Source: an uncultured Dehalococcoidales bacterium (GTDB lineage: Bacteria; Chloroflexota; Dehalococcoidia; GIF9; UBA5629). Taken from it: a stretch of 64,000 bases of DNA. The DNA lies in contig CAZFIM010000002.1 of the NCBI GenBank assembly GCA_964519615.1, positions 23,814-87,813 on the forward strand, written 5' to 3'. This document shows positions 11,265 to 33,584 of the stretch, piece after piece (the first letter of the stretch is position 1; each line of letters begins with the position of its first letter). Under the pieces are notes generated by a model. That model had not been told where the DNA came from and searched no databases. It worked only from the letters and a program-made list of their open reading frames with translations. The position numbers were made by a program, and so were the translations under genes.

Positions 11265-11445
11265 AAAAACCGGCCGTAATAGTTAGTCTTATTTGACTTA
11301 ATTATGCACGATATCCGGTTTTGTAATAAAGCAAAGCGATAGATGTGCATCTGCCGGGTTAAGCGGGCTAAATGCATATCTGACCACAGTGATTATTACA
11401 TGCTACAGCTAAAATAATGCCATATATATGCCTGAGGAGGTAAAA

Positions 11446-14400
11446 ATGTATGTCGCAGGAATAGATATAGGGTACTCTTCAACGAAAGTATCACTGATCA
11501 ACAGAAGCGGTGAAATAGAGTGCAGCAGCTATAGTATGCATAGAGGGCAGATCAAGCCATCGATTAAAGAGGCACTCCGTGAGCTGCTTGCAAAGTACAG
11601 CCTGTCAGAAATTTCACTGGGTGCGGTTACCGGCAGCGGCAGCGATTTACTGGTAAAACCGGGTGCTGTGGAATCTGTAAATGAGGTGCAGTCACTGGTG
11701 GAAGGCGCAATGCAGGTAAATAATACGGCTCATTCCATTATTGAAATCGGCGGTCAGAGCGCAAAATACATTACCGGGTTTAGCAAGCAGGATAAGTCAC
11801 ACATAAAAATGTCCATGAACGCCAACTGCTCCGCTGGCACCGGATCGTTCCTGGAAGAGCAGATGTCCCGGTTGAATATGGAGATTGGAAATTACTCCAC
11901 CTGTGCAAGCAAGGCCAAGTCAATACCCAGAATAGCCGGCCGGTGCAGTGTATTTGCGAAGACGGATATTATCCATCATCAGCAGGAAGGAACTCCGGTG
12001 GAGGATATTTTAATGGGCCTTGCTTATGCTCTGGTGAAAAGCTACAGAGGTTCGGTTATCAGAAAACTCTCAATGGTAAAACCAGTGCTGTTTATCGGCG
12101 GAGTAGCGCATAATGAGGCGATCGTTACTGCATTGAGGGATATACTTTGTCTGAATAATAAAGAGTTGATTATCCCGGAGTACTGCGGTAATGTTGCTTC
12201 CGTCGGGGCGGCAGTTATCGCTCTGCAAAACAATATCAGGATAGATATTCCCCTGTTGTTAGCCGGTCTGGACGAGGTATCGGAATTTCATGATGTTTCG
12301 CAGGATACAGGTGCGCTGCCTGCGCTGGCGGCTTTCGGTGATGGGGACAGCAGAAATAAGCATGTGTGTAAGGAAATAGTACCCGGGCAGCGTGGTCTGG
12401 CCTGCTATCTGGGGGTTGATGTCGGTTCCACCAGCACCAATCTGGTGCTGGCTGATGAGAAAGAAGAAATAGTCTCATATAAATATTTACGTACGCGGGG
12501 GAATCCTGCCCAAGCAGTTATAAACGGCTTAAAGGAACTGGAAGAAGAGCTTGATGATAAAGTTAATATACTCGCTGCAGGAGTAACCGGATCGGGCCGT
12601 TACATGATTGGTGCGCTTATTGGTGCCGACAGCATAAAGGATGAGATTACTGCCCAGGCCAGGGCTGCCGTAGCTGTGGACAGCAGCATAGATACGATAT
12701 TCGAGATAGGCGGACAGGATTCTAAATTTATTAGTCTTGCCAGTGGCATCGTTACCGATTTCCAGATGAATAAGGTATGCGCAGCCGGGACCGGATCTTT
12801 TATAGAAGAGCAGTCCCACAAGTTTAATATACCCATAGATAATTTCGGCGAACTGGCGCTCAGCAGCAGTAATCCTATTAACCTGGGTGAAAGATGTACG
12901 GTTTTTATCGAGACCAGTATTGCTGCCAATCTTTCCTCCGGTGCGGAATTGAAAGATATCGCCTCCGGACTCTGCTATTCCGTTGCCAGGAATTATCTCA
13001 ACAGGGTGGTCGGACAAAAAAAGATCGGCAATAAAATATCTTGTCAGGGAGGCATTGCCTACAATCAGGGTATAGTAAATGCCTTCAGGTCTCTTACCGG
13101 CAAGCCTGTTTCCGTTCTTCCTTTTTTCAGTGTCAGCGGGGCTTATGGTGCTGCCATTCTGGCTAAAGAAGAGATTGGTGACAAAAATACGCTATTTAAA
13201 GGATTCCATATAGAAAGTCCTCAGAAACAAGTAGATAAACGATTGGAAAAACCAAAATCAGGTAATACTGCAAAATTTAATAAATCGATTGAGGAACTGG
13301 TATTTGAGGGATATGATAGAGTAATCGATATCAGGAGAGCCACAGTGGGAATACCCCGTGCATTATTCGCTTACGGCATGTTTCCCATGTTCAATACTTT
13401 TTTCAAAGAACTGGGCTTCAATGTCTTACTTTCAGATCCTACCAGTGAAGAGACCATCAGATTGGGGCAGGAATACTCACTCGATGAGACCTGCTACCCG
13501 GTCAAGCTGATCAACGGCCATGTTGCCGAGCTGGTGCAAAAAAAGGTGGACTATATTTTCTTTCCCGACCTTTATACGGTAGACCACCCCGGTTCACATA
13601 CCCGCCAGAACTATGGCTGTGTCTATATGCAACTTGCTTTTAAAATGATTAATCAGGCCATGGAGCTCAAGATAAAAGGTATAGAATTACTGGCGCCGAC
13701 CATTGCCTTCAATCTTGGCAAAGAGTTCATGCTAAAAAGTTTCCTGGACCTGGGGCGGCAGATGGGTAAAGACCCGCAATTGACAACCCGGGCTCTACAA
13801 AAAAGCATGCAGGCTATTCTCGCTTTTGAAAACAGGATGGAGGAGAACGGGAAGATTGTGATGGCAAGTATCAAGCCTAGTGAAAAAGCGTTTGTTCTTA
13901 TCTCGAAGATATACGGTATTGCCGATCCCGTATTGAATATGGGTATACCGGGCAGGCTGATGGATATGGGCTATAAGGTGTTATCATTTTTTGATCTGCC
14001 CGAAGGTGATATATCGCAAGAGCACCCGAATATGTACTGGCCTTTTGGACAGCATATACTTGAGCCGGTCAAGCTCATCAAACAGCACCCTGACCTGTAT
14101 GCCATACTCCTTACTCATCACGGCTGCGGCCCGGACTCGGTAATGCTCCATTACTTCAAGGAACTTATGGGAGATAAACCCTATTTAAATATTGAGGTTG
14201 ATGAACACTCTTCTGATGTCGGCGTCATTACAAGGATAGAGGCATTTGTTAATAGCTTGAGAAAGCTTCCGGCAAAGAAAGCCGGCGGTACAGAAATTTA
14301 TGCCGGAAACAAGTGCAGCGAGAAGGTGCAAATTAGAAACAGGCTGGCAGGACTGAAAGATGGTGCGACATTGTATCTTCCACAAATGTATCCCTATTCT

Positions 14401-15441
14401 CATATATTTGAAAAAATCCTCATTGGTAAAGGAATAAATGCCAGAGTACTTCCCCAAACCGATATTGTCTCTATAGATATCGGTAAGAAATATACGCTCA
14501 CCAATGAATACTTATCCTTAACAGCACTCCTGGGTGATGCCCTGAAAGAACTTGGAAAAGCGGACAGGGATGAAGTAAGCACAGCTTTTCTTATACCGCA
14601 AACTGAGGGGGCTGAAGTATACGGGCAGTACAACCGGTTCCTGAGAGCGAAACTTGATGAAGCAGGGTACCGTGATACTGATATAATTGCACCTTTTGTA
14701 GAGGATGCCGTCTATCAAAACGGTGAAGATTTGAGGTCTATTTATCTGGGTCTGCTGGCCGGTGATATTGTAAGGATTGCCCCGGCCGGGCATAGGGATG
14801 GCTGTTTAAAAAGAATAACAGAGTCGATCACAAGGAAACAATTCGAGATAGATACTCTGGTAGAAATGGCAAGGGAGTTGAAAACTGTAATTAAATCTGC
14901 CGGATGCGAGGGAAAGAGGATCTTTGCTATCGGAGAACCTTTCATTCTATTCAATGATTTCTTGAACGGCTTTATCCTGAAAGATATCGAGGCAAATGGA
15001 CACAGGGTGATATATTGCCCGTTCAGTGAATACATGTGGCTGATGTGGCAGGACTATGTGGAGCAGAATGGAAAAGATAAATCAACGGATCTGCGCCGAA
15101 GTCTGAATGAATTCGAAAGATATATAAGTGCGGTATCCGGCTGTTTCTCAGAAGAGACTCCCTTTGAGAAGGATCTTAAGGAATTTGCTGCTGCTGCGGA
15201 TGACAAGATCAAATATTATGCCGGCTGGAGCGGCAGATACCGTGAGGCTAAATTACTCAGCGATTTGCCGAATATTCAAGGTTCTATCACTGTAGCCTCT
15301 ACGTATGAAAACACCGGAATAGCACTGGGAATATTGCATAGAGGTTTTGAGAATGGAATGCCGGTTCTCAATCTCACTTTCGATGGTAATAAAAATAGAA
15401 ATGATCAGTCAAAAATCGAGGCCTTTATTCATTATCTATAG
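11446..15441 (+). CDS. large fusion protein: two tandem BadF/BadG/BcrA/BcrD (HgdC-type) activase ATPase domains plus a 2-hydroxyacyl-CoA-dehydratase-like C-terminal domain
   Basis: Two copies of the acetate/sugar-kinase-fold activase pattern (GIDIGYSSTKV...EIGGQ...CAAGTGSFLEEQ and GVDVGSTSTNLV...EIGGQDSKFI...CAAGTGSFIEEQ). A roughly 750 aa C-terminal domain follows. RBS GAGGAGG sits 5 nt before ATG 11446. The ORF from 11428 was discarded. Confidence 0.85.
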   Translation: MYVAGIDIGYSSTKVSLINRSGEIECSSYSMHRGQIKPSIKEALRELLAKYSLSEISLGAVTGSGSDLLVKPGAVESVNEVQSLVEGAMQVNNTAHSIIEIGGQSAKYITGFSKQDKSHIKMSMNANCSAGTGSFLEEQMSRLNMEIGNYSTCASKAKSIPRIAGRCSVFAKTDIIHHQQEGTPVEDILMGLAYALVKSYRGSVIRKLSMVKPVLFIGGVAHNEAIVTALRDILCLNNKELIIPEYCGNVASVGAAVIALQNNIRIDIPLLLAGLDEVSEFHDVSQDTGALPALAAFGDGDSRNKHVCKEIVPGQRGLACYLGVDVGSTSTNLVLADEKEEIVSYKYLRTRGNPAQAVINGLKELEEELDDKVNILAAGVTGSGRYMIGALIGADSIKDEITAQARAAVAVDSSIDTIFEIGGQDSKFISLASGIVTDFQMNKVCAAGTGSFIEEQSHKFNIPIDNFGELALSSSNPINLGERCTVFIETSIAANLSSGAELKDIASGLCYSVARNYLNRVVGQKKIGNKISCQGGIAYNQGIVNAFRSLTGKPVSVLPFFSVSGAYGAAILAKEEIGDKNTLFKGFHIESPQKQVDKRLEKPKSGNTAKFNKSIEELVFEGYDRVIDIRRATVGIPRALFAYGMFPMFNTFFKELGFNVLLSDPTSEETIRLGQEYSLDETCYPVKLINGHVAELVQKKVDYIFFPDLYTVDHPGSHTRQNYGCVYMQLAFKMINQAMELKIKGIELLAPTIAFNLGKEFMLKSFLDLGRQMGKDPQLTTRALQKSMQAILAFENRMEENGKIVMASIKPSEKAFVLISKIYGIADPVLNMGIPGRLMDMGYKVLSFFDLPEGDISQEHPNMYWPFGQHILEPVKLIKQHPDLYAILLTHHGCGPDSVMLHYFKELMGDKPYLNIEVDEHSSDVGVITRIEAFVNSLRKLPAKKAGGTEIYAGNKCSEKVQIRNRLAGLKDGATLYLPQMYPYSHIFEKILIGKGINARVLPQTDIVSIDIGKKYTLTNEYLSLTALLGDALKELGKADRDEVSTAFLIPQTEGAEVYGQYNRFLRAKLDEAGYRDTDIIAPFVEDAVYQNGEDLRSIYLGLLAGDIVRIAPAGHRDGCLKRITESITRKQFEIDTLVEMARELKTVIKSAGCEGKRIFAIGEPFILFNDFLNGFILKDIEANGHRVIYCPFSEYMWLMWQDYVEQNGKDKSTDLRRSLNEFERYISAVSGCFSEETPFEKDLKEFAAAADDKIKYYAGWSGRYREAKLLSDLPNIQGSITVASTYENTGIALGILHRGFENGMPVLNLTFDGNKNRNDQSKIEAFIHYL

Positions 15442-15584
15442 ATCAGAAATGCAGGCTACATTTTTGTGATACTCCGCCCGCAAGCTGTATAATACGAAAA
15501 CATACCCCGATACCTATCCTGTAACACAAGGTGGCAAAACCGCTCTTATGCGCGATGGGTACAGTTTATAAAGGAGGGCTTATA

Positions 15585-16376
15585 ATGTCAGACCGCGCTT
15601 CCGATAAAATAAGGGGGCTGCTGCTGCTGGTCGACCGCATGAATATGAAAGGCCTGCGGCACTGGGGCGGTGAGCTTATGAGGAGAAAAATACCCGCTGT
15701 TATATCGTTAAACCCGGCCACTCTGGAGAGCGATTGTGAGATGGTCAAGCAGCTTGCTGCTGACGGGTTTGAGATTGCCGGCGCCTACAATGAAGGCCCT
15801 TTCTGGAATGAAAGCTACGAGTTTCAGCGTACGATAATATCCCGCACAATGGAGAAGATTTCTGCCTGCATCGGCAAGCCGGGCCGCGTCTTTCACGCCA
15901 AGTATTTCAGTTATAACGAGGACACGCTCAAGATAGCGGACGAGCTCGGCATCGGCTTCATCCTGGCGCGGGGGAGCGCTGGTGTGAGGGGGGTGGTGTA
16001 TAAACCGCAGGAATACGGCTGCCGTATTATCTCGGTAAGCAATGTGCCTTCTAAAGGAAAGGGCACCGGCTCGCTGTGCGATGAATCGCTTCGCTGCAGG
16101 ACTGAGCCCCCTGCTACGCTGCGGGAGCTGCTATTCAGTTTATCGGTGGACAGGATAGTGCTGGTGGCGCAAACACATGTCAGCGGTGTAAAGCTGCACT
16201 GGTGGAACGTGTACCGGGACTTTTTTGACGCGGACATCGTCTCCTGGCAGAGTCTGGACCAATTCTGCGCAAATCCGCAGGTGATGCCGAACTTGCAGAT
16301 ACCCTATAATACCGCAATGGACTATATGGAGCCCAAACCGCTGATACCTCTGGAGCAGGAGGAGGACCTGGTTTAG
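15585..16376 (+). CDS. hypothetical protein (cytoplasmic, no recognisable family)
   Basis: 263 aa ORF with a strong RBS AAGGAGGG 7 nt upstream of ATG 15585. It lies directly downstream of the activase-fusion gene. Confidence 0.55.
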   Translation: MSDRASDKIRGLLLLVDRMNMKGLRHWGGELMRRKIPAVISLNPATLESDCEMVKQLAADGFEIAGAYNEGPFWNESYEFQRTIISRTMEKISACIGKPGRVFHAKYFSYNEDTLKIADELGIGFILARGSAGVRGVVYKPQEYGCRIISVSNVPSKGKGTGSLCDESLRCRTEPPATLRELLFSLSVDRIVLVAQTHVSGVKLHWWNVYRDFFDADIVSWQSLDQFCANPQVMPNLQIPYNTAMDYMEPKPLIPLEQEEDLV

Positions 16377-16386: not shown

Positions 16387-17469
16387 TTACGGCTTGCATT
16401 CTACACTGATGCGGGTACCCTGACCGGGGCCACTCTGGATATGTAGCGTGCCTATAGAGCCCGCTCTCTCTCTGATGCCTATGAGCCCCAGCTTGCTCTT
16501 GGATGCGAACACGTTTATCTTCTCCGGCACTTCAAATCCCACGCCGTTATCTGAAATCTCTAATTTAACATTCCCCGCATCGTGGAATTCGAGGGTGACC
16601 AGCACTTCCGTGGCCTGGGAATGCAGCTTGATATTGTTCAAGGATTCTTCCACAATGCGTATGAGGGTGATATCCATTCCCTTAGGAATCTGGACTTCCT
16701 GCCCTTTTATCACCATTTTGGCATTCATGTGAGTTTCATTCTTCAGCCTGTCTACCAGCCATCTTAAAGCAGCCACGAAACCAACATCATCGAGCAGGCC
16801 GGGCCGTAGATCGATCGCCAGTTGCCTCAGCTTATTGGAAACCTGGATAACGCTGTCTTTTACGCCCATTGCCTCGTTCTGCAATTTGGCCTTGGTCAGG
16901 TTATTCTTGTTGACGGCGATATTCTGCACCTTGCTGGCTATCAGCAGGAGCGAATGAAGCGTATCGTCATGAATCTCCTGGGCAAGACGTTTGCGCTCAA
17001 CCTCCTGCGCCCGGAAAATTTGCGCAATATTGGCCTGCCGTTCATTCTCCCTGTCCATAAGCAGCCCGCGCTCTTTTTTGCGCCAGTTGAGCTCTATGGT
17101 GACGATGGCAATCAAAAGCAAAGGAATACTGAGATAAAACACGTTTTCCAGAACCATTATATTCAATGATCTGTAATAGAACGCCATGGGCATGACCACA
17201 AGCAATGAAATAGCCCAGATAACCAGCGTACCGTACCACCATAAGAATACTGCGGATACAATGAGAGGAATGGTAAAGAGCATACCGTGAAAATGGCTGC
17301 GGAACTCCACTATTACCAGCCGTCTTATCCAATCAGGCAGGTCATGCACAAAGACGGTAGCACCGTAAAAGAGAGCCAACGCAATGACAACGATCAGGAT
17401 TGTTAAAAAGAGCGGGTTGGAGAAAAGTTTTCTTGTTTGTGCCGGAGATATGTTGCTTAATGTATGCAT
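16387..17469 (-). CDS. sensor histidine kinase, NarL/LuxR-partner type (HisKA_3 + HATPase), membrane-embedded sensor
   Basis: N-terminal TM helices with almost no periplasmic loop. H-box ERKRLAQEIHDDTLHSLL and a C-terminal ATPase with G-boxes (DNGVGF, GLIGIRERA). Confidence 0.85.
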   Translation of the reverse strand: MHTLSNISPAQTRKLFSNPLFLTILIVVIALALFYGATVFVHDLPDWIRRLVIVEFRSHFHGMLFTIPLIVSAVFLWWYGTLVIWAISLLVVMPMAFYYRSLNIMVLENVFYLSIPLLLIAIVTIELNWRKKERGLLMDRENERQANIAQIFRAQEVERKRLAQEIHDDTLHSLLLIASKVQNIAVNKNNLTKAKLQNEAMGVKDSVIQVSNKLRQLAIDLRPGLLDDVGFVAALRWLVDRLKNETHMNAKMVIKGQEVQIPKGMDITLIRIVEESLNNIKLHSQATEVLVTLEFHDAGNVKLEISDNGVGFEVPEKINVFASKSKLGLIGIRERAGSIGTLHIQSGPGQGTRISVECKP

Positions 17470-17478
17470 CTGTGCTGA

Positions 17479-18189
17479 TTACTCTATATCATCGGAGGTA
17501 ATTAACCGTGCACGTAGCCCTGTAATGACCGCTTCAGTACGTGAACTGACATTCAATTTGGCAAATATTTCAACCATGTAACTTTTTACCGTATGTAAAC
17601 TCAGGTTCATTTCATGCGAGATATCCTTGTTGCTCAGGCCTCTTGCCGCAAGCCTGAGGATCTCGAGTTCTCTGGCAGTAAGCGTGTCCTTGGCATCCAG
17701 AACGAGCGGCTTTAACGGATACTGCAGGGCATGCTTGAGCACCTGTGTGAATATCTCTGTGACCATCACTATTTCGCCTTTGCTGATGGCCCGTATCGCC
17801 GTAATTATTTCATCTTCATATGATACGCTTTTGGTAAGATATCCCGCCGCTCCCGCATCTAGTATGCTCAAGATGTGCTCGATATCGTCATAAATGGTCA
17901 GTACCAGTATAGCCATACCCGGGCACTTAGCTTTGATTTGTTGTGTAGCCTGCAGTCCGTTCAAGACGGGCATGCCGATATCCATTATCACCATATCCGG
18001 CATCAATTCGCAGGCCAATTTCACCGCCTCTGCGCCGTTGCCTGCTTCTGCGATTACCGTAAAATCAGCCTGTTTTTCCAGTGTCTCCCGGACCGCTTTG
18101 CGAAACAGAGGATGATCATCGGCCAGCAAGATAGTTATCGCTTTATCGGCGGGACTGCGTGTAGATTTCTTACTCTTCCAACCCATCAT
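17479..18189 (-). CDS. response regulator, NarL/LuxR family
   Basis: Receiver domain (ILLADDHPLFR...MDIGMP) plus a C-terminal LuxR HTH (LTARELEILRLAARGLSNKDISHEMNLSLHTVKSYMVEIFAKL). Confidence 0.9.
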   Translation of the reverse strand: MMGWKSKKSTRSPADKAITILLADDHPLFRKAVRETLEKQADFTVIAEAGNGAEAVKLACELMPDMVIMDIGMPVLNGLQATQQIKAKCPGMAILVLTIYDDIEHILSILDAGAAGYLTKSVSYEDEIITAIRAISKGEIVMVTEIFTQVLKHALQYPLKPLVLDAKDTLTARELEILRLAARGLSNKDISHEMNLSLHTVKSYMVEIFAKLNVSSRTEAVITGLRARLITSDDIE

Positions 18190-18432
18190 GATAAATCATT
18201 GTAGCACAGACGAATTTTACACATAAAAGATACGAAAGTATACATTATATCCAACTTTTTATCGTTTACAGAGAGCGGTAAATGCATGTTAAATACTACT
18301 GCAGCCAGATATTTAAGGCCAGGCAGGGCGGCGCATGTGTATGGGTATTGCAGGAACCCACTCTGTGATTTTTATTGTTTTTGTATTGTGAGAAGGTCCT
18401 GCATTGCCGATAACGATCCCGGAGGAATTGCG

Positions 18433-20808
18433 ATGAACATTGAAGCGAGGAAACAAAGAATAAGCAAATTAAGGGAGAAGGTCACAGGCACGCCGGCAAT
18501 TTGCATGGAAAGGCTGTGTTTGATGACGGAGTCTTATAAACAGACTGAGGGTGAGCCTGCTGTCATCAGAAGGGCAAAGGCGCTGCAAAAGATATTGAGC
18601 GGGATGTACATCAATATCGATGACGGAGAGTTGATTGTGGGAAAAACCACCAGCAAAGATCGCGGCAGTACGGTAACTCCGGAGATCAGACAGGAGTGGT
18701 TTTTGCAGCAAATAGAAAGCCTTTCGACCAGAGTATGGGACAGGTTCTCGCCGCTTTCGGAAGATGAAAAGAAAAAGGCAAGGAAATACATGCCCTACTG
18801 GGAAGGCAAATCCGTATGCGACCTGTTTTATGGTATGGCGCCGGAGGAATTCATCAGGCTGGACCACAAGGTCATAACCGGCGGGCTTATCATGCACAAT
18901 TTCAATGTTGGGCATATGGTTTTCGATGCCCAAAGAATTCTAAACATGGGATTGAGCGGCATCAAGAAAGAGGCTGAAGCAGAGCTGTCCAAGTTGAATC
19001 CGGGAATCTATGAGGATTTCGAGAAGTCGCAGTTTTTAAAAGCTGCCGTTATCGCTCTTGATGCTGTAGCGGGCCTTGCCCAAAGATATGCAGAACTTGC
19101 TGAAACCATGGCAAAAAACGAGAGCGGCAGCAAGAGAAGAGCTGAGCTGAAAAAGATCGCACAAACGTGCAGGAGGGTTCCTGCGGGTGCGGCCCGAACG
19201 TTTTTTGAAGCGCTGCAGTCGATCTGGTTTGTACATATAGGGATTGTCATGGAAGGGTGGGGCACCGGCATCGGTATCGGCCGGGCGGATCAGTATTTGT
19301 ATCCCTTCTATCAGAAGGATATGGAAGAGGGGAGAATTACAAAAGATGACGTTTTGGAGCTGTTTGAACTGCTCTATATAAAAATGAATTCATCGGTTAT
19401 TCTGCTGGCAGAGGATGCTGCCAGGATTGCCGGCGGCTTTCCCATATGGCCCAATATGACGCTGGGCGGCGTGACTAAGGATGGAGAAGATGCCGTAAAT
19501 GAGCTTTCTTACCTTTTCCTTGAAGCTGAAGCGGAAGTGCGGCTGCAGCAGGAGGAATTCATTATCAGGGTCAATAAAAAAACTCCGGATGCCTTTTTGC
19601 ATAAAGCATGTGAAGTCGCCAAATTGATGAGGGGAAAATTCAAATTCGTCAGCGATGATACGGCAATACAGGCGCTGCTCGATTGCGGGAAACCCCTCCC
19701 GTACGCGCGTGACTATATTGTGACAGGTTGTTTTAATCTCACCGTCCCCGGAGTATCCGCAGACCTATTCTCAGGCATGTTCAACCTGCCGATGGCGCTG
19801 GAGCTGGCTTTGAATAACGGCGTTTCACGTTTGAGCAAAGAACGGCTGGGGCCGCAAACAGGGGATGCTCGTAAATTCAGTTCCTATGACGATGTATGGA
19901 ATGCCTTTACCAAACAAGTAGCAAGCGCTGTCCCCCTGGTTGTGTTTTATATTAACGCCGATAAGAAGATTTTTGCGGATAACTACCCGTACCCGCTTGA
20001 GTCAGCGCTTTTCAGAGATTGCATCAAGCACGGCAAGAGCATTTTGCACGGAGGTACCGCTCCCTATCTCACCTGCGGAATCGGCCTTGTGGGCGCAGCT
20101 AATGTCGGTGATTCTCTGGCGGCGATAAAAAAGGTTGTATTCGAAGACAGACAGATTACCATGGAGGAATTGGTAGATGCCCTCGATAAAAATTTTGAAG
20201 GCTGTGAGAGAGTTCTCAGCCTGCTCAAGAATGCCCCAAAGTTCGGCAATGACGAGCGCTATGTTGATTCCATTGTCAACGATGTACTCATGTATACCAC
20301 CGAGGAGATAAGAAAATATAGAACCTATTTAGGGACATTGAACACCACCGCGGGTGGAGCGGTCACTTCCAATATTCCCTTAGGATATATAGTAGGGGCG
20401 CTGCCGGACGGAAGAAAGGCCGGGGAATCGCTCTCTGAAGGAGGAATATCCCCTTATCAGGGAAGAAACGTAAGCGGGCCGACGGCTACCATGAGGTCAG
20501 TATCGCAGTTGGACCTGGCACGGTTGAGCAACGGTTCCGTATTGAATATGAGATTGGACCCCGAATCACTGAAAGATGAAGCAAAGATAAGCAAACTGGT
20601 ATCCATGATCAGGACATTCTGTGAAACGGGGGGATACCTGGTTCAATTCAATATTGTCAGTACCGAAACATTAAGGGACGCGCAGGTGCATCCGGAAAAG
20701 TATAGAGACCTTCTAGTCAGGGTAGCCACTTACAGTGCTTATTTTGTGGAACTGAGCCCTGAATTGCAGAACGATATCATTGCCCGGACGGAATTTCAGG
20801 CTCTGTGA
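18433..20808 (+). CDS. glycyl-radical-enzyme (PFL2/glycerol-dehydratase-like) family homologue with Thr at the canonical radical-Gly position
   Basis: About 791 aa. The C-terminal radical-domain fingerprint FNIVSTETLRDAQVHPEKYRDLLVRVATYSAYFVELSPELQNDIIARTEF aligns with RVxGY but has ACT (Thr) where Gly is expected. The Cys loop reads TGCFNL (20849-region gene follows) rather than GCVE. RBS GGAGGA precedes ATG 18433. Confidence 0.85.
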   Translation: MNIEARKQRISKLREKVTGTPAICMERLCLMTESYKQTEGEPAVIRRAKALQKILSGMYINIDDGELIVGKTTSKDRGSTVTPEIRQEWFLQQIESLSTRVWDRFSPLSEDEKKKARKYMPYWEGKSVCDLFYGMAPEEFIRLDHKVITGGLIMHNFNVGHMVFDAQRILNMGLSGIKKEAEAELSKLNPGIYEDFEKSQFLKAAVIALDAVAGLAQRYAELAETMAKNESGSKRRAELKKIAQTCRRVPAGAARTFFEALQSIWFVHIGIVMEGWGTGIGIGRADQYLYPFYQKDMEEGRITKDDVLELFELLYIKMNSSVILLAEDAARIAGGFPIWPNMTLGGVTKDGEDAVNELSYLFLEAEAEVRLQQEEFIIRVNKKTPDAFLHKACEVAKLMRGKFKFVSDDTAIQALLDCGKPLPYARDYIVTGCFNLTVPGVSADLFSGMFNLPMALELALNNGVSRLSKERLGPQTGDARKFSSYDDVWNAFTKQVASAVPLVVFYINADKKIFADNYPYPLESALFRDCIKHGKSILHGGTAPYLTCGIGLVGAANVGDSLAAIKKVVFEDRQITMEELVDALDKNFEGCERVLSLLKNAPKFGNDERYVDSIVNDVLMYTTEEIRKYRTYLGTLNTTAGGAVTSNIPLGYIVGALPDGRKAGESLSEGGISPYQGRNVSGPTATMRSVSQLDLARLSNGSVLNMRLDPESLKDEAKISKLVSMIRTFCETGGYLVQFNIVSTETLRDAQVHPEKYRDLLVRVATYSAYFVELSPELQNDIIARTEFQAL

Positions 20809-20848
20809 AAGAGCGGCAGGTTTAGTACGGGCAGGATAAGAGCGGTCA

Positions 20849-21769
20849 ATGGATAAACGGGAAGGAATTGTATTCCACATCATCAGAGGGTCTTTTGTGG
20901 ATGGATACGGAATCAGGACCACGGTATTTTTAAAGGGATGTCCTCTACGGTGTCTCTGGTGCTGCAACCCTGAAGGACAGCTAAAGCAGCTGCAGATCAA
21001 GTACACGCCCTCAGCGTGCAACAGCTGCGGAAGATGCGCCGAGGTCTGTCCGTATAATGCAATTCAAATCGGGCCGGATAAGAGGGCATTACTCAACAGG
21101 GAATTGTGCACTGATTGCGGACAATGTATAGATGTCTGCTTTACGGGGGCGCTTTCCTTTTTCGGCAAGGTGATGACTGTAGATGAGGTCTGGGATATAG
21201 TGAAGCAGGATGAGCGCTATTACCGTTCTTCCGGGGGAGGGGTCACCATCGGCGGCGGTGAACCGACCTTTCAACCTTATTTCACCTATGCTCTCATGAA
21301 AAGATGTCAGGAAAACCATATTCATGTGGCACTTGACACCTGCGGATATGTCGACAGCAAGCCCGTGCTGCGGTGTCTGGAGGAAGCTGACCTGCTGCTC
21401 TTTGATTTGAAGGGTCTGGATGAGGCGCGCCATAGGGACAATACCGGTGTATCGAATGAGCTGATTCTTAAAAACCTGATACGACTGGATGCCATGGGAA
21501 AAGCGATTATTATCAGATTGCCGCTCATTCCGGGATACACGGACTCGGAAATAAATATCGAAGCTACTGCCAAGCTTATATCCGGGCTTAAATCGGTAGA
21601 GAGGGTAGATCTTCTGGCCTATCACTTATATGGCTCTACAAAATACGAGCAATTAGGGATGCCCGATCGGCTGCGCATGCTGAATATTCAGCCTCTTGGC
21701 GGTGAAAGGCTCGCTGCCGTTATGGATGTGTTCTGTCGATACGATATAAAAGTTCAGATCGGAGGGTAG
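20849..21769 (+). CDS. glycyl-radical enzyme activating enzyme (radical SAM; PFL-AE family with ferredoxin-like insert)
   Basis: CPLRCLWC (Cx3Cx2C), two additional CxxCxxCxxxCP clusters, and the GGGEP SAM motif. Confidence 0.9.
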   Translation: MDKREGIVFHIIRGSFVDGYGIRTTVFLKGCPLRCLWCCNPEGQLKQLQIKYTPSACNSCGRCAEVCPYNAIQIGPDKRALLNRELCTDCGQCIDVCFTGALSFFGKVMTVDEVWDIVKQDERYYRSSGGGVTIGGGEPTFQPYFTYALMKRCQENHIHVALDTCGYVDSKPVLRCLEEADLLLFDLKGLDEARHRDNTGVSNELILKNLIRLDAMGKAIIIRLPLIPGYTDSEINIEATAKLISGLKSVERVDLLAYHLYGSTKYEQLGMPDRLRMLNIQPLGGERLAAVMDVFCRYDIKVQIGG

Positions 21770-21856: not shown

Positions 21857-23740
21857 ATGCAGAAAGCAATTGTAAGCTACGATAAAGGTATCGGGATACT
21901 CACGAAAGTTTGCGCATATGTAGGTATCTCAGCCATGTTTTTTGTTGTGCTGCTCACGGTAACGCACGGCACAGGACGGTACATTTTCAACAAACCTGTG
22001 CTGGGCATGGTTGAAATAACGAACTTTATGGTAATCAGCGCAGTCTTCCTCACGTTTGCGTATACACTGAAATTGAACGGGCACACGAGTATACGTGTTA
22101 TAATCGACCGCCTCTCGGAGAGAGGCCAGGCTATCTGCGGAGCGGTCAGCAGCGTAATCGGCATAATTTTCTCTGTCGGAGCGTGCTGGCAGACATTGAT
22201 GCAGTGCAAAGAGGTTGTCGGCGCGGTATCCGTCATACTCCATTTGCCCAAAGTACCCTTTTTCTATGTGATAGCTGTGGGGTGGGGACTTTTTACGCTT
22301 ACGCTGATACTGCTGTTAGCAAAAGACCTGTCCAAACTGATGGGCGGGAAATGGATACTGTCTCTTATTCTGCTGACTCTTGCGGCCTCTGCGGCGCTGA
22401 TTCTATTTACACATTCCGGTAGAGGAGTGTTAGGAGATATGAATCAACTCGCGGTCGGTCTGATCGGACTGCTGGTAATCAGTATTCTGCTCTTCTCAGG
22501 TATACCCGTTGCCATAGTTTTAGCGGCAGGCGGGTTTTTCGGCGTTGCTTTATTTGCCGGGTTTCAACCGGCAAACTGTGCTATTGCCACTATCCCTTAT
22601 GCTACCTTATATAACTATGCCTGGTCGAGCATACCGATGTATATCCTCATGGGATTTTTTGCCGATCATTCAGGATTGGCAAAAGATTTTTATACAGGGG
22701 TACAGAAATGGGTGGGACATTTCCGCGGCGGGCTGGCTCAGGCCGTCATCGTCGCCAACGCTGCATTCGGTGCGTGCAGCGGTAACTCGCTCAGTGCAGC
22801 AATTACTTTCTGCTCTATCTCCTTACCTGAAATGCGCAAGTACAGGTATGACGACAAGATCACGCTGGGGGCTATCTGCGGCGGAAGCCTGCTCTCCAGC
22901 TTAATACCTCCCAGCATAGTGCTCATTATTTTCGGTGCGGTGACACAGACGCAGATCAGCGATCTCTTTATCGGTGGGATAATTCCCGGGCTGCTGCTGT
23001 CTGTTATGTTTATGATTCAAATCTACGTTCAGTGCCGGATAAATCCTTTTGTCGGTCCGGCTATGCCGCCGTCACCCATAAGTGAGAGGCTCAGGGCAAC
23101 CACCGGCATGTGGACGGTGGTTGCTGTCTTCGGAATAATAATAGGGGGAATATACTTCGGTCTATTCACGCCCACGGAGGCGGGGGCATTCGGGGCTTTT
23201 GTTGTTCTCCTCATCGGCCTGATAAGGAGAAAACTGGGCTGGGGAGATTTCAAGGATTCCCTGCTGCAGTCAGCTATCACTCTGGGAATGGTAGGATTTT
23301 TATTCGTGGCTGCTCTGGTATTCAACCTGTTTATCGTGAGGACCGGTGTGCCCGTGGCGTTGTCTGAACTGGTGAGCAATGTCAGTTCTCCTCCTCTTTT
23401 TATGATGCTTGTCGTACTGCTGTATATCATACTGGGCCTCTTTTTAGACGGGCTGGCAATATTGATGCTGACTTTGCCTGTTCTTTTCCCGCTTGCCACA
23501 CAGTTGGGTATCGATCCGGTGCATTTCTGCATAGTAATTTCAACAGCTAATCTAATAGGTGCCTTGACGCCCCCCTTCGGTATGGTCGTTTATTCGCTCG
23601 CTACCGTAGCAAAAGATGTCCCTATTATGAAAATCTTTGCCGGTTCAGTGCCTTTTGTTCTCACTACGCTGGCCTGCAATGTAGTACTTATATTTTTCCC
23701 CCAGTTGTCAACGTTTCTTCCTTCTACGATGGCCTCGTAG
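21857..23740 (+). CDS. TRAP transporter fused permease (DctQ-like N-terminus plus DctM-like domain)
   Basis: 627 aa polytopic membrane protein. The first four or so TM helices are DctQ-like and are followed by a DctM 12-TM domain. Confidence 0.85.
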   Translation: MQKAIVSYDKGIGILTKVCAYVGISAMFFVVLLTVTHGTGRYIFNKPVLGMVEITNFMVISAVFLTFAYTLKLNGHTSIRVIIDRLSERGQAICGAVSSVIGIIFSVGACWQTLMQCKEVVGAVSVILHLPKVPFFYVIAVGWGLFTLTLILLLAKDLSKLMGGKWILSLILLTLAASAALILFTHSGRGVLGDMNQLAVGLIGLLVISILLFSGIPVAIVLAAGGFFGVALFAGFQPANCAIATIPYATLYNYAWSSIPMYILMGFFADHSGLAKDFYTGVQKWVGHFRGGLAQAVIVANAAFGACSGNSLSAAITFCSISLPEMRKYRYDDKITLGAICGGSLLSSLIPPSIVLIIFGAVTQTQISDLFIGGIIPGLLLSVMFMIQIYVQCRINPFVGPAMPPSPISERLRATTGMWTVVAVFGIIIGGIYFGLFTPTEAGAFGAFVVLLIGLIRRKLGWGDFKDSLLQSAITLGMVGFLFVAALVFNLFIVRTGVPVALSELVSNVSSPPLFMMLVVLLYIILGLFLDGLAILMLTLPVLFPLATQLGIDPVHFCIVISTANLIGALTPPFGMVVYSLATVAKDVPIMKIFAGSVPFVLTTLACNVVLIFFPQLSTFLPSTMAS

Positions 23741-23858: not shown

Positions 23859-25067
23859 ATGAAATCAAAAAGCACACTGATTATTGCGAGTGTTCTGCTG
23901 GTTCTCGTAATGCTGATGGGGATTGTCGGCTGTTCCACTAAAGCACCGGCGTCGGCACCGGCGGAGAAGCCACCGACCTCAACAGCATCACCGGATAAGA
24001 ACAAGGTCTATAAATTGACGTTTTCAAGCTTTAACTCTGCTGAAGATAACAAGAGTAAAGTAATCTCAAAATGGTGGTTCAAATGGCTCAATGAGGAGAG
24101 CGGCGGCAGAATAGAGGTTACTTCTTACTTCGATGCACAGGCAGCCGCCCCGCAGGATCAGATAACGGCTGCTAAAAATCATATAGTGGATATTGCGGAA
24201 CCTGCCTCGCACGGTTCACCGGGGTCTTTCCCGCTAAACGATCTTATCGCTCTGCCATTTGTCTTTGACTGGCCGTCCAGCCGTGCTTTCTCACTGACGC
24301 AACTGGCATTACTGGAAAAATATCCTCAATTGAGAGCTGAGATAGAAGATCAGGGAGTGAAGCTGCTGGGCTCCGTTCAGTGCGCCTCACCGTCCGAACT
24401 CTGGGCAGCAGACAAACCGATAAAAGTCCCGAACGATATCAAGGGAATGGTGCTTCATTGCTGGGGGCAGATGGAGGCCGATGCCTTGAAGCTTTGCGGT
24501 GCTGCACCTGAAACCTTTGCTCCGGGTGAAGTGTATGACGCATTGTCCAAAGGCGTAATTGACGGCACTATGGACAGCTATGTTGCGGCATCGCTCGTAT
24601 TCGGTCATATCGACAAAGTCAATTATGGAATAGAAATTAATCTGTCCAATGTATACTGGATGCACGTAATGAACCTCGATACCTGGAACAGCCTACCCTC
24701 CGATCTGCAGGAGCTCTTTATAGGAGAGAACGCCCGCCGTATAACCGAACTATGGGGCTACCAATTTGAGCAGGACGATAGTTTTGCCAAGGATGTTGCT
24801 AATAAGCAGCTTAGTGAACGCGGTAAATCTGAAGTTTATGTTCCCACCGCAGCAGAGATGAAACTATGGAGAGATGCTGTCGTTCAGGTAAAAGACGCTT
24901 GGGTAAAGAGGGCAAATGAGCTGGGAGCACCGGGCGAAGACATGTGGAACGACCTGTTGAAATTCGCTGAACAGTACTCCTACAAGAATTATCCCACACA
25001 GGATTGGTACCTGCCTACATTACAGAAATATCAAAATGAGGTTCCGCTGCCTGATCACTGGAAGTAA
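23859..25067 (+). CDS. TRAP transporter solute-binding lipoprotein (DctP-like)
   Basis: Signal peptide with lipobox IVGC and periplasmic-binding-protein-like sequence features shared with the DctP at 35493. RBS GGGGAGG. Confidence 0.65.
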   Translation: MKSKSTLIIASVLLVLVMLMGIVGCSTKAPASAPAEKPPTSTASPDKNKVYKLTFSSFNSAEDNKSKVISKWWFKWLNEESGGRIEVTSYFDAQAAAPQDQITAAKNHIVDIAEPASHGSPGSFPLNDLIALPFVFDWPSSRAFSLTQLALLEKYPQLRAEIEDQGVKLLGSVQCASPSELWAADKPIKVPNDIKGMVLHCWGQMEADALKLCGAAPETFAPGEVYDALSKGVIDGTMDSYVAASLVFGHIDKVNYGIEINLSNVYWMHVMNLDTWNSLPSDLQELFIGENARRITELWGYQFEQDDSFAKDVANKQLSERGKSEVYVPTAAEMKLWRDAVVQVKDAWVKRANELGAPGEDMWNDLLKFAEQYSYKNYPTQDWYLPTLQKYQNEVPLPDHWK

Positions 25068-31315: not shown

Positions 31316-32071
31316 CTAAACATTGGTTTCCTCTTTCAATGATTCAGGTAAATACTTGTAATCCATTATTTTAAATAGGATAGATTTACATTTCCTTGCA
31401 TCGCGTGCACGCAACGCATCGCAAAGCCTCAGATGCCCATCCTTCTCGCGTGAGATCTTTAATACTTCATCAAATATTTTTAATCTGGATACCAGAATAA
31501 TACGCAGATATTGTTTGATGGGATCCTGTGCAGCCATATATGACAGAGAAAACAAAGGATTTTTTGATAACTCGCAGATTTTTAAATGGATGTTATAATC
31601 TGCATTAACGAGCTGCTCGATTATCTCATCTTCATTATCAATGGGATATTTAGCATTGGTCAACATCTCAAAAAACTGTACACACAGCGATTCTAACTCG
31701 TCAATTTCCTTATCATTACAATTTTTTACGATGAGTCGGGTACTTTCCAATTCAATAAGCTTACGAAAATCCAGCACATCACGTACGGTTCCCGATTTGA
31801 CCATGCAGGAAGATAGCTCTTTGAAATATTTACCGGCATCGAACTTGATAACAAATGACCCTTCGCCAGCACGTGTACGTACAAGCCCCAGAGCGTTTAG
31901 TTTTTGCAGGGCGATACGAATGGTAAGGCGACTCACACCGTATATTTCACATAAACCGTGTTCGGAAGGAAGTTTTTGCCCGGCTTGCCATTGACCTGAG
32001 AGTATTTCCTCTTTTATTTGATCATATACCTGATCGGCTAGAGTATATTTGGATACCTTAAGACGCGTCAT
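31316..32071 (-). CDS. GntR-family transcriptional regulator (FadR/FCD subfamily)
   Basis: N-terminal wHTH LPSEHGLCEIYGVSRLTIRIALQKLNALGLV plus a C-terminal FCD-like all-helical domain. Confidence 0.85.
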   Translation of the reverse strand: MTRLKVSKYTLADQVYDQIKEEILSGQWQAGQKLPSEHGLCEIYGVSRLTIRIALQKLNALGLVRTRAGEGSFVIKFDAGKYFKELSSCMVKSGTVRDVLDFRKLIELESTRLIVKNCNDKEIDELESLCVQFFEMLTNAKYPIDNEDEIIEQLVNADYNIHLKICELSKNPLFSLSYMAAQDPIKQYLRIILVSRLKIFDEVLKISREKDGHLRLCDALRARDARKCKSILFKIMDYKYLPESLKEETNV

Positions 32072-32119
32072 TTTTCTTGCTTATTTCCATTAATTTAAAT
32101 TAAAAGATAGCACCTTTTA

Positions 32120-32133
32120 GCCTAGATAACAAG
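32120..32133. promoter_or_regulatory. operator-like motif GCCTAGATAACAAG, copy 1, upstream of the GntR gene; contains ATAAC-AA-GTTAT inverted repeat
   Basis: Exact 14-mer repeated at 32292-32305. Confidence 0.4.
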
Positions 32134-32257
32134 TTATACTAGTAACCGAAATTTATATAAGGGCAGAGAGAAATGCAAAAAAGTTACACGATTATATGTT
32201 TTCACTCCCTTATTATTTTGTAACGGTTTGAAGAATAAGAAATCTTCTTATATGTGC

Positions 32258-32305
32258 TTGACAATCTTGTCGGGGAAACTATAATATGTATGCCTAGATA
32301 ACAAG
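32258..32305 (+). promoter_or_regulatory. consensus sigma70 promoter (TTGACA, 16-17 bp spacer, TATAAT) with GCCTAGATAACAAG copy 2 over the predicted transcription start
   Basis: TTGACA at 32258-32263 and TATAAT at 32280-32285. The operator copy at 32292-32305 is followed by ACAAG tandem repeats. RBS AAGGAG precedes ATG 32329. Confidence 0.5.
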
Positions 32306-32328
32306 CTAACAAGTAACAAGGAGATAAC

Positions 32329-33513
32329 ATGCAAATAACCAGTGTAGATGTATTTAGATGCAACGGAAAATCTCCTATTGATAAAGAAATATTTACTGTA
32401 GTCTGTGTAAAAATAAACACCGATGAAGGGATATGTGGTTTTGGGGAAGCCGGGATGTCATATGGCGCCGGAGCAGAAGCAGCATTTGGTATTATTCAAG
32501 ATTTTGCTTATTTGATATTGGGTATGGATCCCATGAAAATTGAAGCAATATGGAATAAATTGCATCGTAATACTTTTTGGGGTATGGGGGGTGGCGCTGT
32601 CATATTTTCCGGTTTCAGTGCCATTGATATTGCATTGTGGGATATCAAAGGAAAGGCATTAGGGGTACCTGTTTACCAACTGCTAGGTGGAAAAACAAAC
32701 GATAAGCTGCGGGCATACGCCAGTCAGATACAGTTTGATTGGGGTCCTATTAGCCGTGCCATGATAACCACAAATGACTATGCTGATGCTACCAGACGCG
32801 CTATTGCCGATGGATACGACTGTATTAAAGTTGACCCTGTTATGTTCGATGAGATGGGGCGGTTTATGCACTGGAATAATTACGGCATTCTACGCAATGA
32901 ACAGCTAAGAATAGCAGTCGCCCGTATTGCAGCAATACGTAAGGCCGGCGGCCCTGATCTGGATATTATTATAGAACTGCACGGCTATACGGATACTAAT
33001 ACCAGTATACAGCTGGGCAGGGAGCTGGAACAGTTCCGCTGTTTTTATTATGAAGAGCCCACGCAGCCGCTCAATCCAAATTTATTCAAAGAAATATCAG
33101 ACAAGGTTAAAATCCCTATTGCCAGCGGTGAACGTATTTTTAGCCGCTGGGGTTATCGGCCGTTTTTTGAGAATAGAGCTTTGTCGGTAATTCAGCCGGA
33201 CATGTGCAACTGCGGCGGTCTGACCGAAGGCAAGAAGATATGTGATATGGCGCATGTCTACGATATCGGCGTACAGGTGCACGTATGCGGCGGCCCGATT
33301 TCCACTGCTGCAGCATTACAAATGGAAGCGGTAATACCGAATTTTGTCATCCACGAACAGCATCAGGCTGCACTGGTACAAGAGAATATTGCTTTGTGTA
33401 AATACGATTATCAGCCGGTCAGCGGTTATTTTGAGGTGCCTGACCGGCCGGGTATTGGGCAGGAGCTTTCAGATGCGGCAATGAGAGATGCCATTCGAGT
33501 TACTATTTCTTAG
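32329..33513 (+). CDS. enolase-superfamily (mandelate racemase/muconate lactonizing enzyme family) acid-sugar dehydratase-like enzyme
   Basis: N-terminal capping domain plus a TIM-barrel with the metal-ligand pattern of ManD/DgoD-like dehydratases (AIDIALWDIKGK, IKVDP, ELHG, EEP). Confidence 0.85.
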   Translation: MQITSVDVFRCNGKSPIDKEIFTVVCVKINTDEGICGFGEAGMSYGAGAEAAFGIIQDFAYLILGMDPMKIEAIWNKLHRNTFWGMGGGAVIFSGFSAIDIALWDIKGKALGVPVYQLLGGKTNDKLRAYASQIQFDWGPISRAMITTNDYADATRRAIADGYDCIKVDPVMFDEMGRFMHWNNYGILRNEQLRIAVARIAAIRKAGGPDLDIIIELHGYTDTNTSIQLGRELEQFRCFYYEEPTQPLNPNLFKEISDKVKIPIASGERIFSRWGYRPFFENRALSVIQPDMCNCGGLTEGKKICDMAHVYDIGVQVHVCGGPISTAAALQMEAVIPNFVIHEQHQAALVQENIALCKYDYQPVSGYFEVPDRPGIGQELSDAAMRDAIRVTIS

Positions 33514-33584
33514 TAATAAATTATTTTGCTCAAATACTCCTGTTTCAGGCCATCTGTTATTGAGTGAGAGGAAAGGAATAAAAA

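What the first reader, a model, noticed from the sequence alone, without database searches (positions are those of the whole stretch)
18433..21769. Glycyl-radical-enzyme homologue with Thr at the radical-Gly position and Asn at the Cys-loop Glu, next to an apparently intact activase
The C-terminal fingerprint of the 18433-20808 protein aligns residue by residue with the GRE glycine loop (..YRDL[LV]VRVAGYSA[YH]F[VI]EL..). The codon at 20728-20730 is ACT (Thr) rather than GGN. Changing GGN to ACT needs two substitutions, so a single base error does not explain it. The Cys loop reads TGCFNL where PFL2-class enzymes (CutC, glycerol dehydratase, HPAD) have GC-x-E, so the proposed general-base Glu is also missing while the Cys is kept. 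The downstream gene 20849-21769 is a complete GRE activase, with Cx3Cx2C, GGGEP and two auxiliary clusters, which argues the locus is under selection. Known activases act only on a Gly C-alpha hydrogen. Three readings are possible: a non-radical GRE-fold protein such as a substrate-binding or regulatory paralogue, an enzyme whose radical is supplied in trans, or an undescribed radical site.
Basis: partly seen in the sequence, partly recalled or inferred. Interest (0 to 1): 0.8.

Follow-up and report, generated by a model that had tools for sequence, protein, structure and literature searches.

The report
Threonyl radical enzyme with its activase
This gene pair encodes a threonyl radical enzyme, a glycyl-radical-enzyme relative that stores its radical on a threonine, and its activating enzyme; the class was described in 2024, so this is a new environmental member of a known class whose chemical reaction is still unknown.

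Summary
The 791-aa protein (18433-20808) is a full-length PFL2-type glycyl-radical-enzyme homologue with Thr766 (ACT, 20728-20730) at the radical-Gly column. It has Asn435 at the Cys-loop Glu column and keeps Cys433. An intact radical-SAM activase follows 40 nt downstream.

It is not an error or a decaying copy. All 120 closest database homologues and 96 of 96 TRE ORFs in related loci carry Thr, encoded by all four ACN codons. The Thr-bearing sequences form one clade (NJ bootstrap 85/100).

The class is already published. Fu et al. 2024 (JACS, PMC11528403) named these threonyl radical enzymes (TREs), part of the aminoacyl radical enzymes. They showed by EPR that a dedicated activase installs a C-alpha radical on the Thr. 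Three MAGs or organisms in their TRE list hold relatives found here at 54-58% identity.

Its third reading, a new radical site, is right in substance but no longer new.

The reaction is unknown for every TRE (2026 review). Features specific to this locus:
- one TRE per activase
- co-orientation with a TRAP transporter whose binding protein lacks the canonical carboxylate-binding Arg
- a Glu-less Cys loop shared by the whole subclade

Verdict: new member of a known kind; moderate interest.

The parts
18433..20808 (+). Threonyl radical enzyme (TRE), 791 aa, PFL2-type GRE fold
   Evidence: Pfam PFL-like plus Gly_radical. NCBIfam TIGR01774 subfamily 694.6 bits against cut-off 678.2, with every equivalog failed. 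AF2 model pLDDT 84, TM 0.88-0.89 to 1r8w, 5i2g and 6vxc. Lies inside the Thr clade. The NCBI record calls the gene from ATG 18286 (840 aa), but the SD site and the homologues support 18433.
20728..20730 (+). Codon ACT = Thr766, at the radical-Gly column of the RVxG[FWY] fingerprint; inferred site of the C-alpha radical
   Evidence: Invariant in alignment A1. 96 of 96 relatives have Thr, using all four ACN codons. The radical assignment is by homology to FpTRE1/2 EPR (PMC11528403).
19729..19737 (+). Cys loop: Cys433-Phe434-Asn435. Cys is the inferred thiyl radical site. Asn replaces the eliminase general-base Glu.
   Evidence: Cys is invariant. Position C+2 is never Glu in 89 subclade members.
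20849..21769 (+). TRE-activating enzyme (radical SAM, 306 aa), 40 nt downstream of the TRE
   Evidence: Radical_SAM plus two Fer4. TIGR02494 at 324.5 against 174, with all equivalogs failed. Motif coordinates: CX3CX2C 20939-20962, auxiliary clusters 21017-21049 and 21107-21139, GGGEP 21251-21265. Homologues at median 59% identity in 49 of 82 TRE loci. Closest of the three characterised AARE activases to FpTRE-AE.
21857..23740 (+). Fused TRAP transporter membrane subunit DctQ-DctM (627 aa), same strand, 87 nt after the activase. Probable substrate importer (inferred).
   Evidence: Pfam DctQ plus DctM; TIGR00786. TRAP components lie beside TREs in only 11 of 82 loci, so this link is specific to the locus, not general to the class.
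23859..25067 (+). TRAP solute-binding protein DctP (402 aa, lipoprotein-like N-terminus) with His200 in place of the canonical carboxylate-binding Arg
   Evidence: Pfam DctP. Alignments to 4p56, 7nr2, 4n6d and TTHA0766 all show Arg against His. The second DctP of the window has Arg.
16387..18189 (-). Divergently transcribed two-component pair: HisKA_3 histidine kinase (16387-17469) and NarL/LuxR-type response regulator (17479-18189). Possible regulators of the TRE operon, by position only.
   Evidence: Pfam. Not conserved beside other TREs (HK in 4 of 82 loci, RR in 2 of 82).

Best explanation
The locus encodes a threonyl radical enzyme (TRE) and its dedicated radical-SAM activase.

Inferred by homology to FpTRE1/2:
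1. The activase reductively cleaves SAM.
2. The 5'-deoxyadenosyl radical abstracts the C-alpha hydrogen of Thr766 in the buried C-terminal loop, leaving a stable, oxygen-sensitive threonyl C-alpha radical.
3. During turnover the radical passes to Cys433. The resulting thiyl radical abstracts a hydrogen atom from the substrate and is regenerated at the end of the cycle.

Inferred from gene order: the substrate is a small molecule imported by the co-oriented TRAP transporter, and expression is probably controlled by the divergent two-component system.

The reaction is unknown. The enzyme is closest in sequence to the GRE 1,2-eliminases, but it lacks their general-base Glu and most glycerol-dehydratase substrate contacts. 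If it does eliminase-like chemistry, it must use a different acid/base arrangement.
For: Shown here:
- Thr at the Gly column, with Cys kept.
- GRE fold.
- Complete activase 40 nt downstream.
- Thr in 120 of 120 closest homologues and 96 of 96 ORFs in related loci, with all four ACN codons, which indicates purifying selection on the residue.
- The 12 full-length Thr sequences (the query plus 11 of the 150 best 50%-identity representatives) form a single split in an NJ tree built without the Thr column, bootstrap 85/100.
- All loci at 39% identity or below carry Gly.
- An activase lies directly downstream on the same strand in 35 related loci.
- The window activase is nearer to FpTRE-AE (41%) than to the Ala- or Ser-enzyme activases (36% and 32%).

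From the literature (PMC11528403):
- EPR shows a carbon-centred radical on FpTRE1/2 that requires the activase, SAM and reductant.
- T770G gives a glycyl doublet. T770A, S, I and C give no radical.
- Cys-dependent H/D exchange supports thiyl formation.
- Table S3 lists as TREs proteins from bacterium SM23_31 (my L002, 54% identity), Chloroflexi RBG_16_50_9 (P0042, P0091 and P0105, 56-58%) and a Moorella (probably P0071, 56%).
Against: - No experiment exists on this protein.
- Its identity to the characterised FpTREs could not be measured cleanly, because only OCR-damaged DNA was available. The lower bound is about 35%, with 80% over the last 50 residues.
- The AF2 model is unreliable in exactly the radical domain (pLDDT below 50 for 768-791 and 669-683), so Thr-Cys proximity was not verified.
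- 24 related loci with at least 1.2 kb of downstream sequence show no activase there.
- The transporter link is weak for the class as a whole (11 of 82 loci).
- The binding protein lacks the usual carboxylate-clamping Arg, so even the substrate class is open.
Confidence: 0.82

Rival explanations
1. Non-radical pseudoenzyme: a GRE-fold protein that has lost radical chemistry and acts as a binding or regulatory paralogue.
For: Both the radical Gly and the general-base Glu of the nearest characterised enzymes are replaced. Most glycerol-dehydratase substrate contacts are changed (alignment). 24 related loci show no adjacent activase.
Against: Cys433 and Thr766 are invariant across the clade, with synonymous codon turnover. 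An intact activase is the only consistently co-located gene (49 of 82 loci by tblastn, 46 by ORF clustering). Two clade members form a Thr radical in vitro (PMC11528403).
Confidence: 0.05
2. The activase modifies Thr766 in another way (for example epimerisation or side-chain oxidation), or the working radical sits elsewhere and Thr is only structural.
For: Radical SAM enzymes do epimerise residues and oxidise beta-carbons in other systems (general knowledge). The FpTRE EPR spectra lack resolved hyperfine splitting, and the C-alpha assignment was reached by elimination.
Against: In FpTRE1 the Thr-to-Gly variant gives a classical glycyl doublet at the same site, and the Ala, Ser, Ile and Cys variants give nothing. 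g-values exclude an oxygen radical, and the line shapes exclude beta- and gamma-carbon radicals.
Confidence: 0.07
3. Sequencing or assembly artefact, or an isolated decaying copy of a canonical GRE.
For: None beyond the rarity of the substitution among annotated GREs.
Against: Two nucleotide changes are needed. The ORF is intact and full-length. A 98%-identical fragment with the same Cys loop exists in an independent JGI metagenome (P0392). All close relatives share Thr.
Confidence: 0.01

Closest known systems
Threonyl radical enzymes (TREs) of the aminoacyl radical enzyme (AARE) class: FpTRE1 and FpTRE2 with FpTRE-AE of Flavonifractor plautii (Fu et al. 2024, JACS 146:29645, PMC11528403)
   Same: RVATYSAYF fingerprint with Thr at the radical position. 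Conserved Cys. No Glu at Cys+2 (FpTRE2 also has Asn there). Adjacent ferredoxin-domain radical SAM activase. Membership of one Thr clade. Several of this protein's nearest relatives are listed in the paper's TRE table.
   Different: One TRE per activase here, whereas the paper describes two TREs per activase as usual. Source is a Chloroflexota/Dehalococcoidia-like environmental MAG rather than a gut Clostridia isolate. The Cys loop GCFNL is rare (1 GCINL and no GCFNL among 89 loci ORFs). The operon carries a TRAP transporter. No biochemical data exist.
B12-independent glycerol dehydratase (1r8w) and other GRE 1,2-eliminases (propanediol dehydratase, CutC, HypD, IslA/IseG, HpsG)
   Same: Best sequence and fold matches (E 1e-163; TM 0.88-0.89). 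Same domain order. Cys loop and His161 (GDH His164) conserved. Same type of activase.
   Different: Radical residue is Thr, not Gly. The general-base Glu is replaced by Asn. GDH contacts are changed: N156 to L, H281 to T, S282 to G, Y339 to W, D447 to gap/Ser, Y640 to G. The protein fails every NCBIfam equivalog cut-off by 380-550 bits.
Alanyl and serinyl radical enzymes (DgARE, DaSRE) of the same AARE class
   Same: GRE homologues with a non-Gly radical residue and dedicated activases.
   Different: Different residue and different clades. The window activase is less similar to their activases (36% and 32%) than to FpTRE-AE (41%).

Membership tests
Threonyl radical enzymes (TRE; AARE class, Fu et al. 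2024) | PFL-like GRE fold with a C-terminal radical domain | tested here: met
   Pfam PFL-like plus Gly_radical; phmmer to 37 solved GREs; AF2 and Foldseek TM 0.88-0.89.
Threonyl radical enzymes (TRE; AARE class, Fu et al. 2024) | Thr in place of Gly in the RVxG[FWY] fingerprint | tested here: met
   RVATY with ACT at 20728-20730, aligned column by column to RVAGY of 1r8w and 5i2a.
Threonyl radical enzymes (TRE; AARE class, Fu et al. 2024) | Conserved catalytic Cys in the Cys loop | tested here: met
   Cys433 aligned to GDH Cys433; invariant in A1.
Threonyl radical enzymes (TRE; AARE class, Fu et al. 2024) | Encoded next to a radical SAM activase with CX3CX2C and auxiliary clusters | tested here: met
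Threonyl radical enzymes (TRE; AARE class, Fu et al. 2024) | Falls in the monophyletic Thr clade | tested here: met
   NJ tree of 142 sequences: Thr set is a single split, bootstrap 85/100, with the Thr column excluded. Nearest relatives come from MAGs listed in Table S3. Caveats: NJ only, and native FpTRE sequences were not in the tree.
Threonyl radical enzymes (TRE; AARE class, Fu et al. 2024) | Activase-dependent stable C-alpha threonyl radical (EPR) | not testable with these tools
   Requires anaerobic protein work. Shown only for FpTRE1/2.
GRE 1,2-eliminases (GDH, PD, CutC, HypD, IslA, HpsG) | Radical-storing Gly in the C-terminal loop | tested here: not met
   Thr766.
GRE 1,2-eliminases (GDH, PD, CutC, HypD, IslA, HpsG) | Cys-x-Glu motif with Glu as general base | tested here: not met
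   Cys-Phe-Asn. 0 of 89 relatives have Glu.
GRE 1,2-eliminases (GDH, PD, CutC, HypD, IslA, HpsG) | Score above a curated equivalog cut-off for a characterised enzyme | tested here: not met
   HpsG 617 against 1000; HypD 570 against 1100; CutC 556 against 1050; HpfG 508 against 1000. Only the broad PFL2-3 subfamily model passes, 694.6 against 678.2.
GRE activating enzymes (TIGR02494, PFLE_PFLC subfamily) | Subfamily model cut-off, CX3CX2C motif, GGE SAM motif and two ferredoxin-like clusters | tested here: met
   324.5 against 174.35 bits. All substrate-specific activase equivalogs failed. Motifs confirmed.

The most novel reading that the evidence does not exclude
This Glu-less TRE subclade carries out a reaction outside the known GRE reaction classes, on a substrate that is not a simple carboxylate. 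The grounds are as follows. The whole subclade lacks the eliminase general base. The predicted pocket replaces polar GDH contacts with Leu, Gly, Trp, Gly and Thr. The TRAP binding proteins encoded beside TREs, including this one (His200), mostly lack the canonical carboxylate-clamping Arg. If so, the compact TRE-activase-TRAP operon, with its binding protein as a ligand probe, would be a direct route to the first AARE function.
Probability: 0.2. Interest if true: 0.7.

Novelty: new member of a known kind. Interest (0 to 1): 0.35.

Why it matters
It was established experimentally in 2024, so the locus does not reveal a new principle.

Its value is practical. No aminoacyl radical enzyme has an assigned reaction (review of June 2026), and the published contexts are large and heterogeneous. 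Here the TRE and its activase are followed only by a TRAP importer. A ligand screen on its soluble binding protein (DSF or ITC) could name the substrate.

The survey also shows that TREs are much more numerous and diverse in environmental metagenomes than the 71 sequences listed in 2024:
- 120 clusters at 90% identity among the nearest homologues alone
- at least 14 clusters at 50% identity
- more than 300 candidate stretches in JGI contigs

Automated annotation still names them 'glycyl radical enzyme'.

Tried and rejected
1. The genome-contig scan with patterns from the single protein returned mostly canonical Gly enzymes. Only L001 and L002 were TREs. It was useful as a negative contrast but poor for context.

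2. The first NJ and bootstrap run with Biopython timed out. I redid it with a numpy NJ.

3. Direct comparison with FpTRE1, FpTRE2 and FpTRE-AE used DNA text extracted from the paper's PDF, which contains indels. The resulting identities (35%, 35%, 41%) are lower bounds and were used only for ranking.

4. Exact-sequence look-ups of the TRE, the activase and the LeuRS contig found nothing. The cluster look-up then showed that the record calls the TRE from ATG 18286, and that its 90% cluster is represented by a 339-aa fragment. That explains why no near-identical hit appeared.

5. The upstream BcrAD_BadFG x2-DUF2229-HGD-D fusion (11428-15441) and the polysaccharide-deacetylase-like gene (15531-16376) were considered as partners and rejected. 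They occur in 0 of 82 TRE loci.

6. Promoter and terminator scans gave counts at or below the shuffled expectation. Short repeats in the 18190-18432 intergenic region were unremarkable. The operon structure therefore rests only on strand and short gaps (40, 87 and 118 nt).

7. I tried to learn the ligand of the nearest solved TRAP binding protein (7nr2) from the paper library, without success. My recollection that it belongs to the aromatic-acid-binding TarP group is unverified and was not used.

8. The AF2 model could not be used for Thr-Cys geometry, because the radical domain is low confidence and coordinates are not exposed.

9. A search for a second GRE or activase in the window found none.
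Full report
**Observation**

The ORF 18433-20808 (+) encodes 791 aa. A GGAGG Shine-Dalgarno site lies 8 nt before its ATG, and homologues begin at the same point. The public record instead calls the gene from ATG 18286, giving 840 aa.

Pfam finds PFL-like (E 3e-190) and Gly_radical (E 3e-29). The codon at 20728-20730 is ACT, giving Thr766 in LLVRVATYSAYFVEL.

phmmer against all PDB chains gives B12-independent glycerol dehydratase 1r8w as the best match (E 1e-163). The alignment has no gaps in either loop. RVATYSA lies on RVAGYSA, and TGCFNL lies on IGCVEP. So Thr766 occupies the radical-Gly column, Cys433 is retained, and Asn435 occupies the column of the eliminase general-base Glu.

The next ORF, 20849-21769, starts 40 nt downstream. 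It has CX3CX2C (C31-C38), two CX2CX2CX3C motifs and GGGEP. It passes the NCBIfam glycyl-radical-enzyme-activase subfamily model at 324.5 bits against a cut-off of 174.

**Is it an oddity of one sequence?**

No.
- The 120 best homologues in the 5.8-billion-protein collection are 54-61% identical, and all 120 carry Thr at this position (RV[AS]T[YW]S) together with the Cys.
- A scan of metagenome contigs with a profile of this subclade added 78 loci. With four other loci, this gave 96 TRE ORFs with a readable C-terminus.
- All 96 have Thr. The codons are ACA 39, ACC 36, ACT 11 and ACG 10, which shows selection on the amino acid rather than shared descent of one codon.
- By contrast, genome loci recovered at 31-39% identity all carry Gly.
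- In an exhaustive search of 1.84 billion 50%-identity representatives, the top-scoring full-length hits are all Thr. Ala and Gly sequences follow.
- In an NJ tree of 142 near-full-length sequences, built without the Thr column, the 12 Thr sequences form a single split with 85/100 bootstrap support.
- A 98%-identical fragment with the same GCFNL loop exists in an independent JGI metagenome.

**What it is**

A literature search found that this class has been described. Fu et al. 2024 (JACS 146:29645, PMC11528403) reported GRE homologues with Ala, Ser or Thr at the radical position and named them aminoacyl radical enzymes. The Thr group are threonyl radical enzymes, TREs.

For FpTRE1 and FpTRE2 of Flavonifractor plautii they showed the following:
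- A carbon-centred radical forms only with the partner activase, SAM and reductant.
- Thr-to-Gly variants give a classical glycyl doublet, and Ala, Ser, Ile and Cys variants give no radical.
- H/D exchange depends on the Cys, which supports thiyl formation.

Their Table S3 lists TREs from bacterium SM23_31, from Chloroflexi bacterium RBG_16_50_9 and from a Moorella. These are the sources of my L002 (54%), of P0042, P0091 and P0105 (56-58%) and probably of P0071 (56%).

The window activase is more similar to FpTRE-AE (41%) than to the Ala- or Ser-enzyme activases (36% and 32%). The last 50 residues of the window TRE are 80% identical to FpTRE1. These figures come from OCR-damaged DNA and are lower bounds.

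The predicted structure (pLDDT 84.3, pTM 0.87) matches glycerol and propanediol dehydratases, HypD and CutC at TM 0.88-0.89. The radical domain itself is poorly modelled.

Every defining feature of a TRE that can be tested in silico is met. Only the EPR criterion cannot be tested here.

**Mechanism**

Inferred by homology:
1. The activase cleaves SAM reductively.
2. The 5'-deoxyadenosyl radical removes the C-alpha hydrogen of Thr766.
3. The stored threonyl radical is relayed to Cys433.
4. The thiyl radical abstracts a substrate hydrogen.

The reaction is unknown. Fu et al. could not assign one. A June 2026 review states that no function has been elucidated for any AARE.

NCBIfam places the protein only at the PFL2-3 subfamily level (694.6 against 678.2 bits). 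It fails every characterised equivalog by hundreds of bits.

From the alignment, GDH His164 and Cys433 are kept. The other GDH contacts are changed: N156 to L152, H281 to T278, S282 to G279, Y339 to W339, E435 to N435, D447 to a gap/Ser447, and Y640 to G642. The pocket is therefore different and less polar.

Loss of the Glu is a clade property. None of 89 subclade ORFs has Glu at Cys+2. FpTRE2 reads C-H-N and FpTRE1 reads C-N-(L/S). Some more distant Thr representatives do keep Glu.

**Context**

Four genes follow one another on the + strand with gaps of 40, 87 and 118 nt: the TRE, the activase, a fused DctQ-DctM and a DctP. A HisKA_3 kinase and a NarL/LuxR regulator are transcribed divergently upstream.

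Across 82 TRE loci:
- Activase: 49 loci by tblastn (46 by ORF clustering). It lies directly downstream on the same strand in 35.
- TRAP components: 11 loci.
- Kinase: 4 loci. Regulator: 2 loci.
- Upstream BcrAD-DUF2229 fusion and deacetylase-like gene: none.

The other recurrent neighbours are SDRs, OYE-like flavoenzymes, FAD oxidoreductases, family III CoA-transferases, MaoC-like hydratases, AOR, molybdopterin oxidoreductases and UGSC-family proteins. This agrees with the paper's statement that contexts are varied.

62 of the 82 loci show a single TRE, whereas the paper describes two TREs per activase as usual.

There is no second GRE or activase in the window. LeuRS places the source among Chloroflexota/Dehalococcoidia-like MAGs.

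**A side observation bearing on the substrate**

The TRE-linked DctP has His200 where solved TRAP binding proteins have the Arg that clamps the ligand carboxylate. This holds in five alignments. The other DctP in the same window has the Arg. Of ten further DctPs encoded beside TREs, only one has Arg. The usual argument that a TRAP transporter implies a carboxylate substrate is therefore unsafe here.

**Verdict**

It is a radical enzyme with a non-Gly radical site, not a pseudoenzyme or an artefact. But the class is already known, and the premise about activase specificity is outdated.
- The locus is a new, environmental, single-TRE member of the TRE class with an unusually compact transporter-linked operon.
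- Interest is moderate. It offers a practical handle on the open question of what AAREs do, not a new kind of system.

Noticed in passing
window 23859-25067 (His200, about 24456-24458); also L080, L092, L095, L100, L109, L111, L129, L136, L138, L150: The TRAP solute-binding protein encoded after the TRE has His at the position of the canonical carboxylate-clamping Arg (G-x-K-x-R strand). Of 10 other DctP homologues encoded beside TREs, only 1 keeps Arg; the others have W (4), H, I, E, L or Q. The window's second DctP (35466-36554) has the Arg.
   Followed up: partly
window 18286-18432: The public record calls the TRE gene from ATG 18286 (840 aa, P0391). A GGAGG Shine-Dalgarno lies 8 nt before ATG 18433, and all homologues start there, so the 49-residue N-terminal extension is probably a mis-call. 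Its 90% cluster is represented by a 339-aa fragment, which hides the full-length protein from similarity searches.
   Followed up: yes
L130, L158 and 14 other TRE loci (cluster 3): Proteins of about 565 aa whose only Pfam match is the UGSC family (PF24696, N-terminal 160 residues) occur 28 times in 16 TRE loci, often in several copies per locus. Their function is unknown.
   Followed up: partly
window 11428-16376: A 1337-aa fusion of two BcrAD/BadFG ATPase domains with DUF2229 and an HGD-D-like C-terminal region (acyl-CoA dehydratase activase type) is followed by a weak polysaccharide-deacetylase-like protein. Neither occurs beside other TREs (0 of 82 loci).
   Followed up: partly
window 31316-38530: A separate GntR/FCD-regulated cluster encodes a mandelate racemase/MLE-family enzyme, a D-2-hydroxyacid dehydrogenase, a PEP-mutase/isocitrate-lyase-family protein and a canonical TRAP system (DctP 35466-36554, DctM 37214-38530). 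It looks like an organic-acid catabolic operon.
   Followed up: no
L057, L063, L066 and other Asgard archaeal loci (Promethearchaeota, Odin-, Hel- and Thorarchaeota MAGs): These loci carry canonical Gly GRE homologues with an unusual KV[ST]GYSARF fingerprint (Lys instead of Arg). They occur as 2-4 tandem paralogues per locus, with four copies in L057.
   Followed up: no
P0133, P0153, P0163, P0223: Four 50%-identity representatives carry Ala at the radical position (RVAAY). In the NJ tree they did not form a single split, whereas Fu et al. report the Ala enzymes as monophyletic. The sample is small and the tree is NJ only.
   Followed up: no
Contig names suggest many are sediment, sulfate-methane transition zone and bioreactor samples. 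The class appears much larger and more environmental than the 71, mostly gut-derived, TREs listed in 2024.
   Followed up: partly
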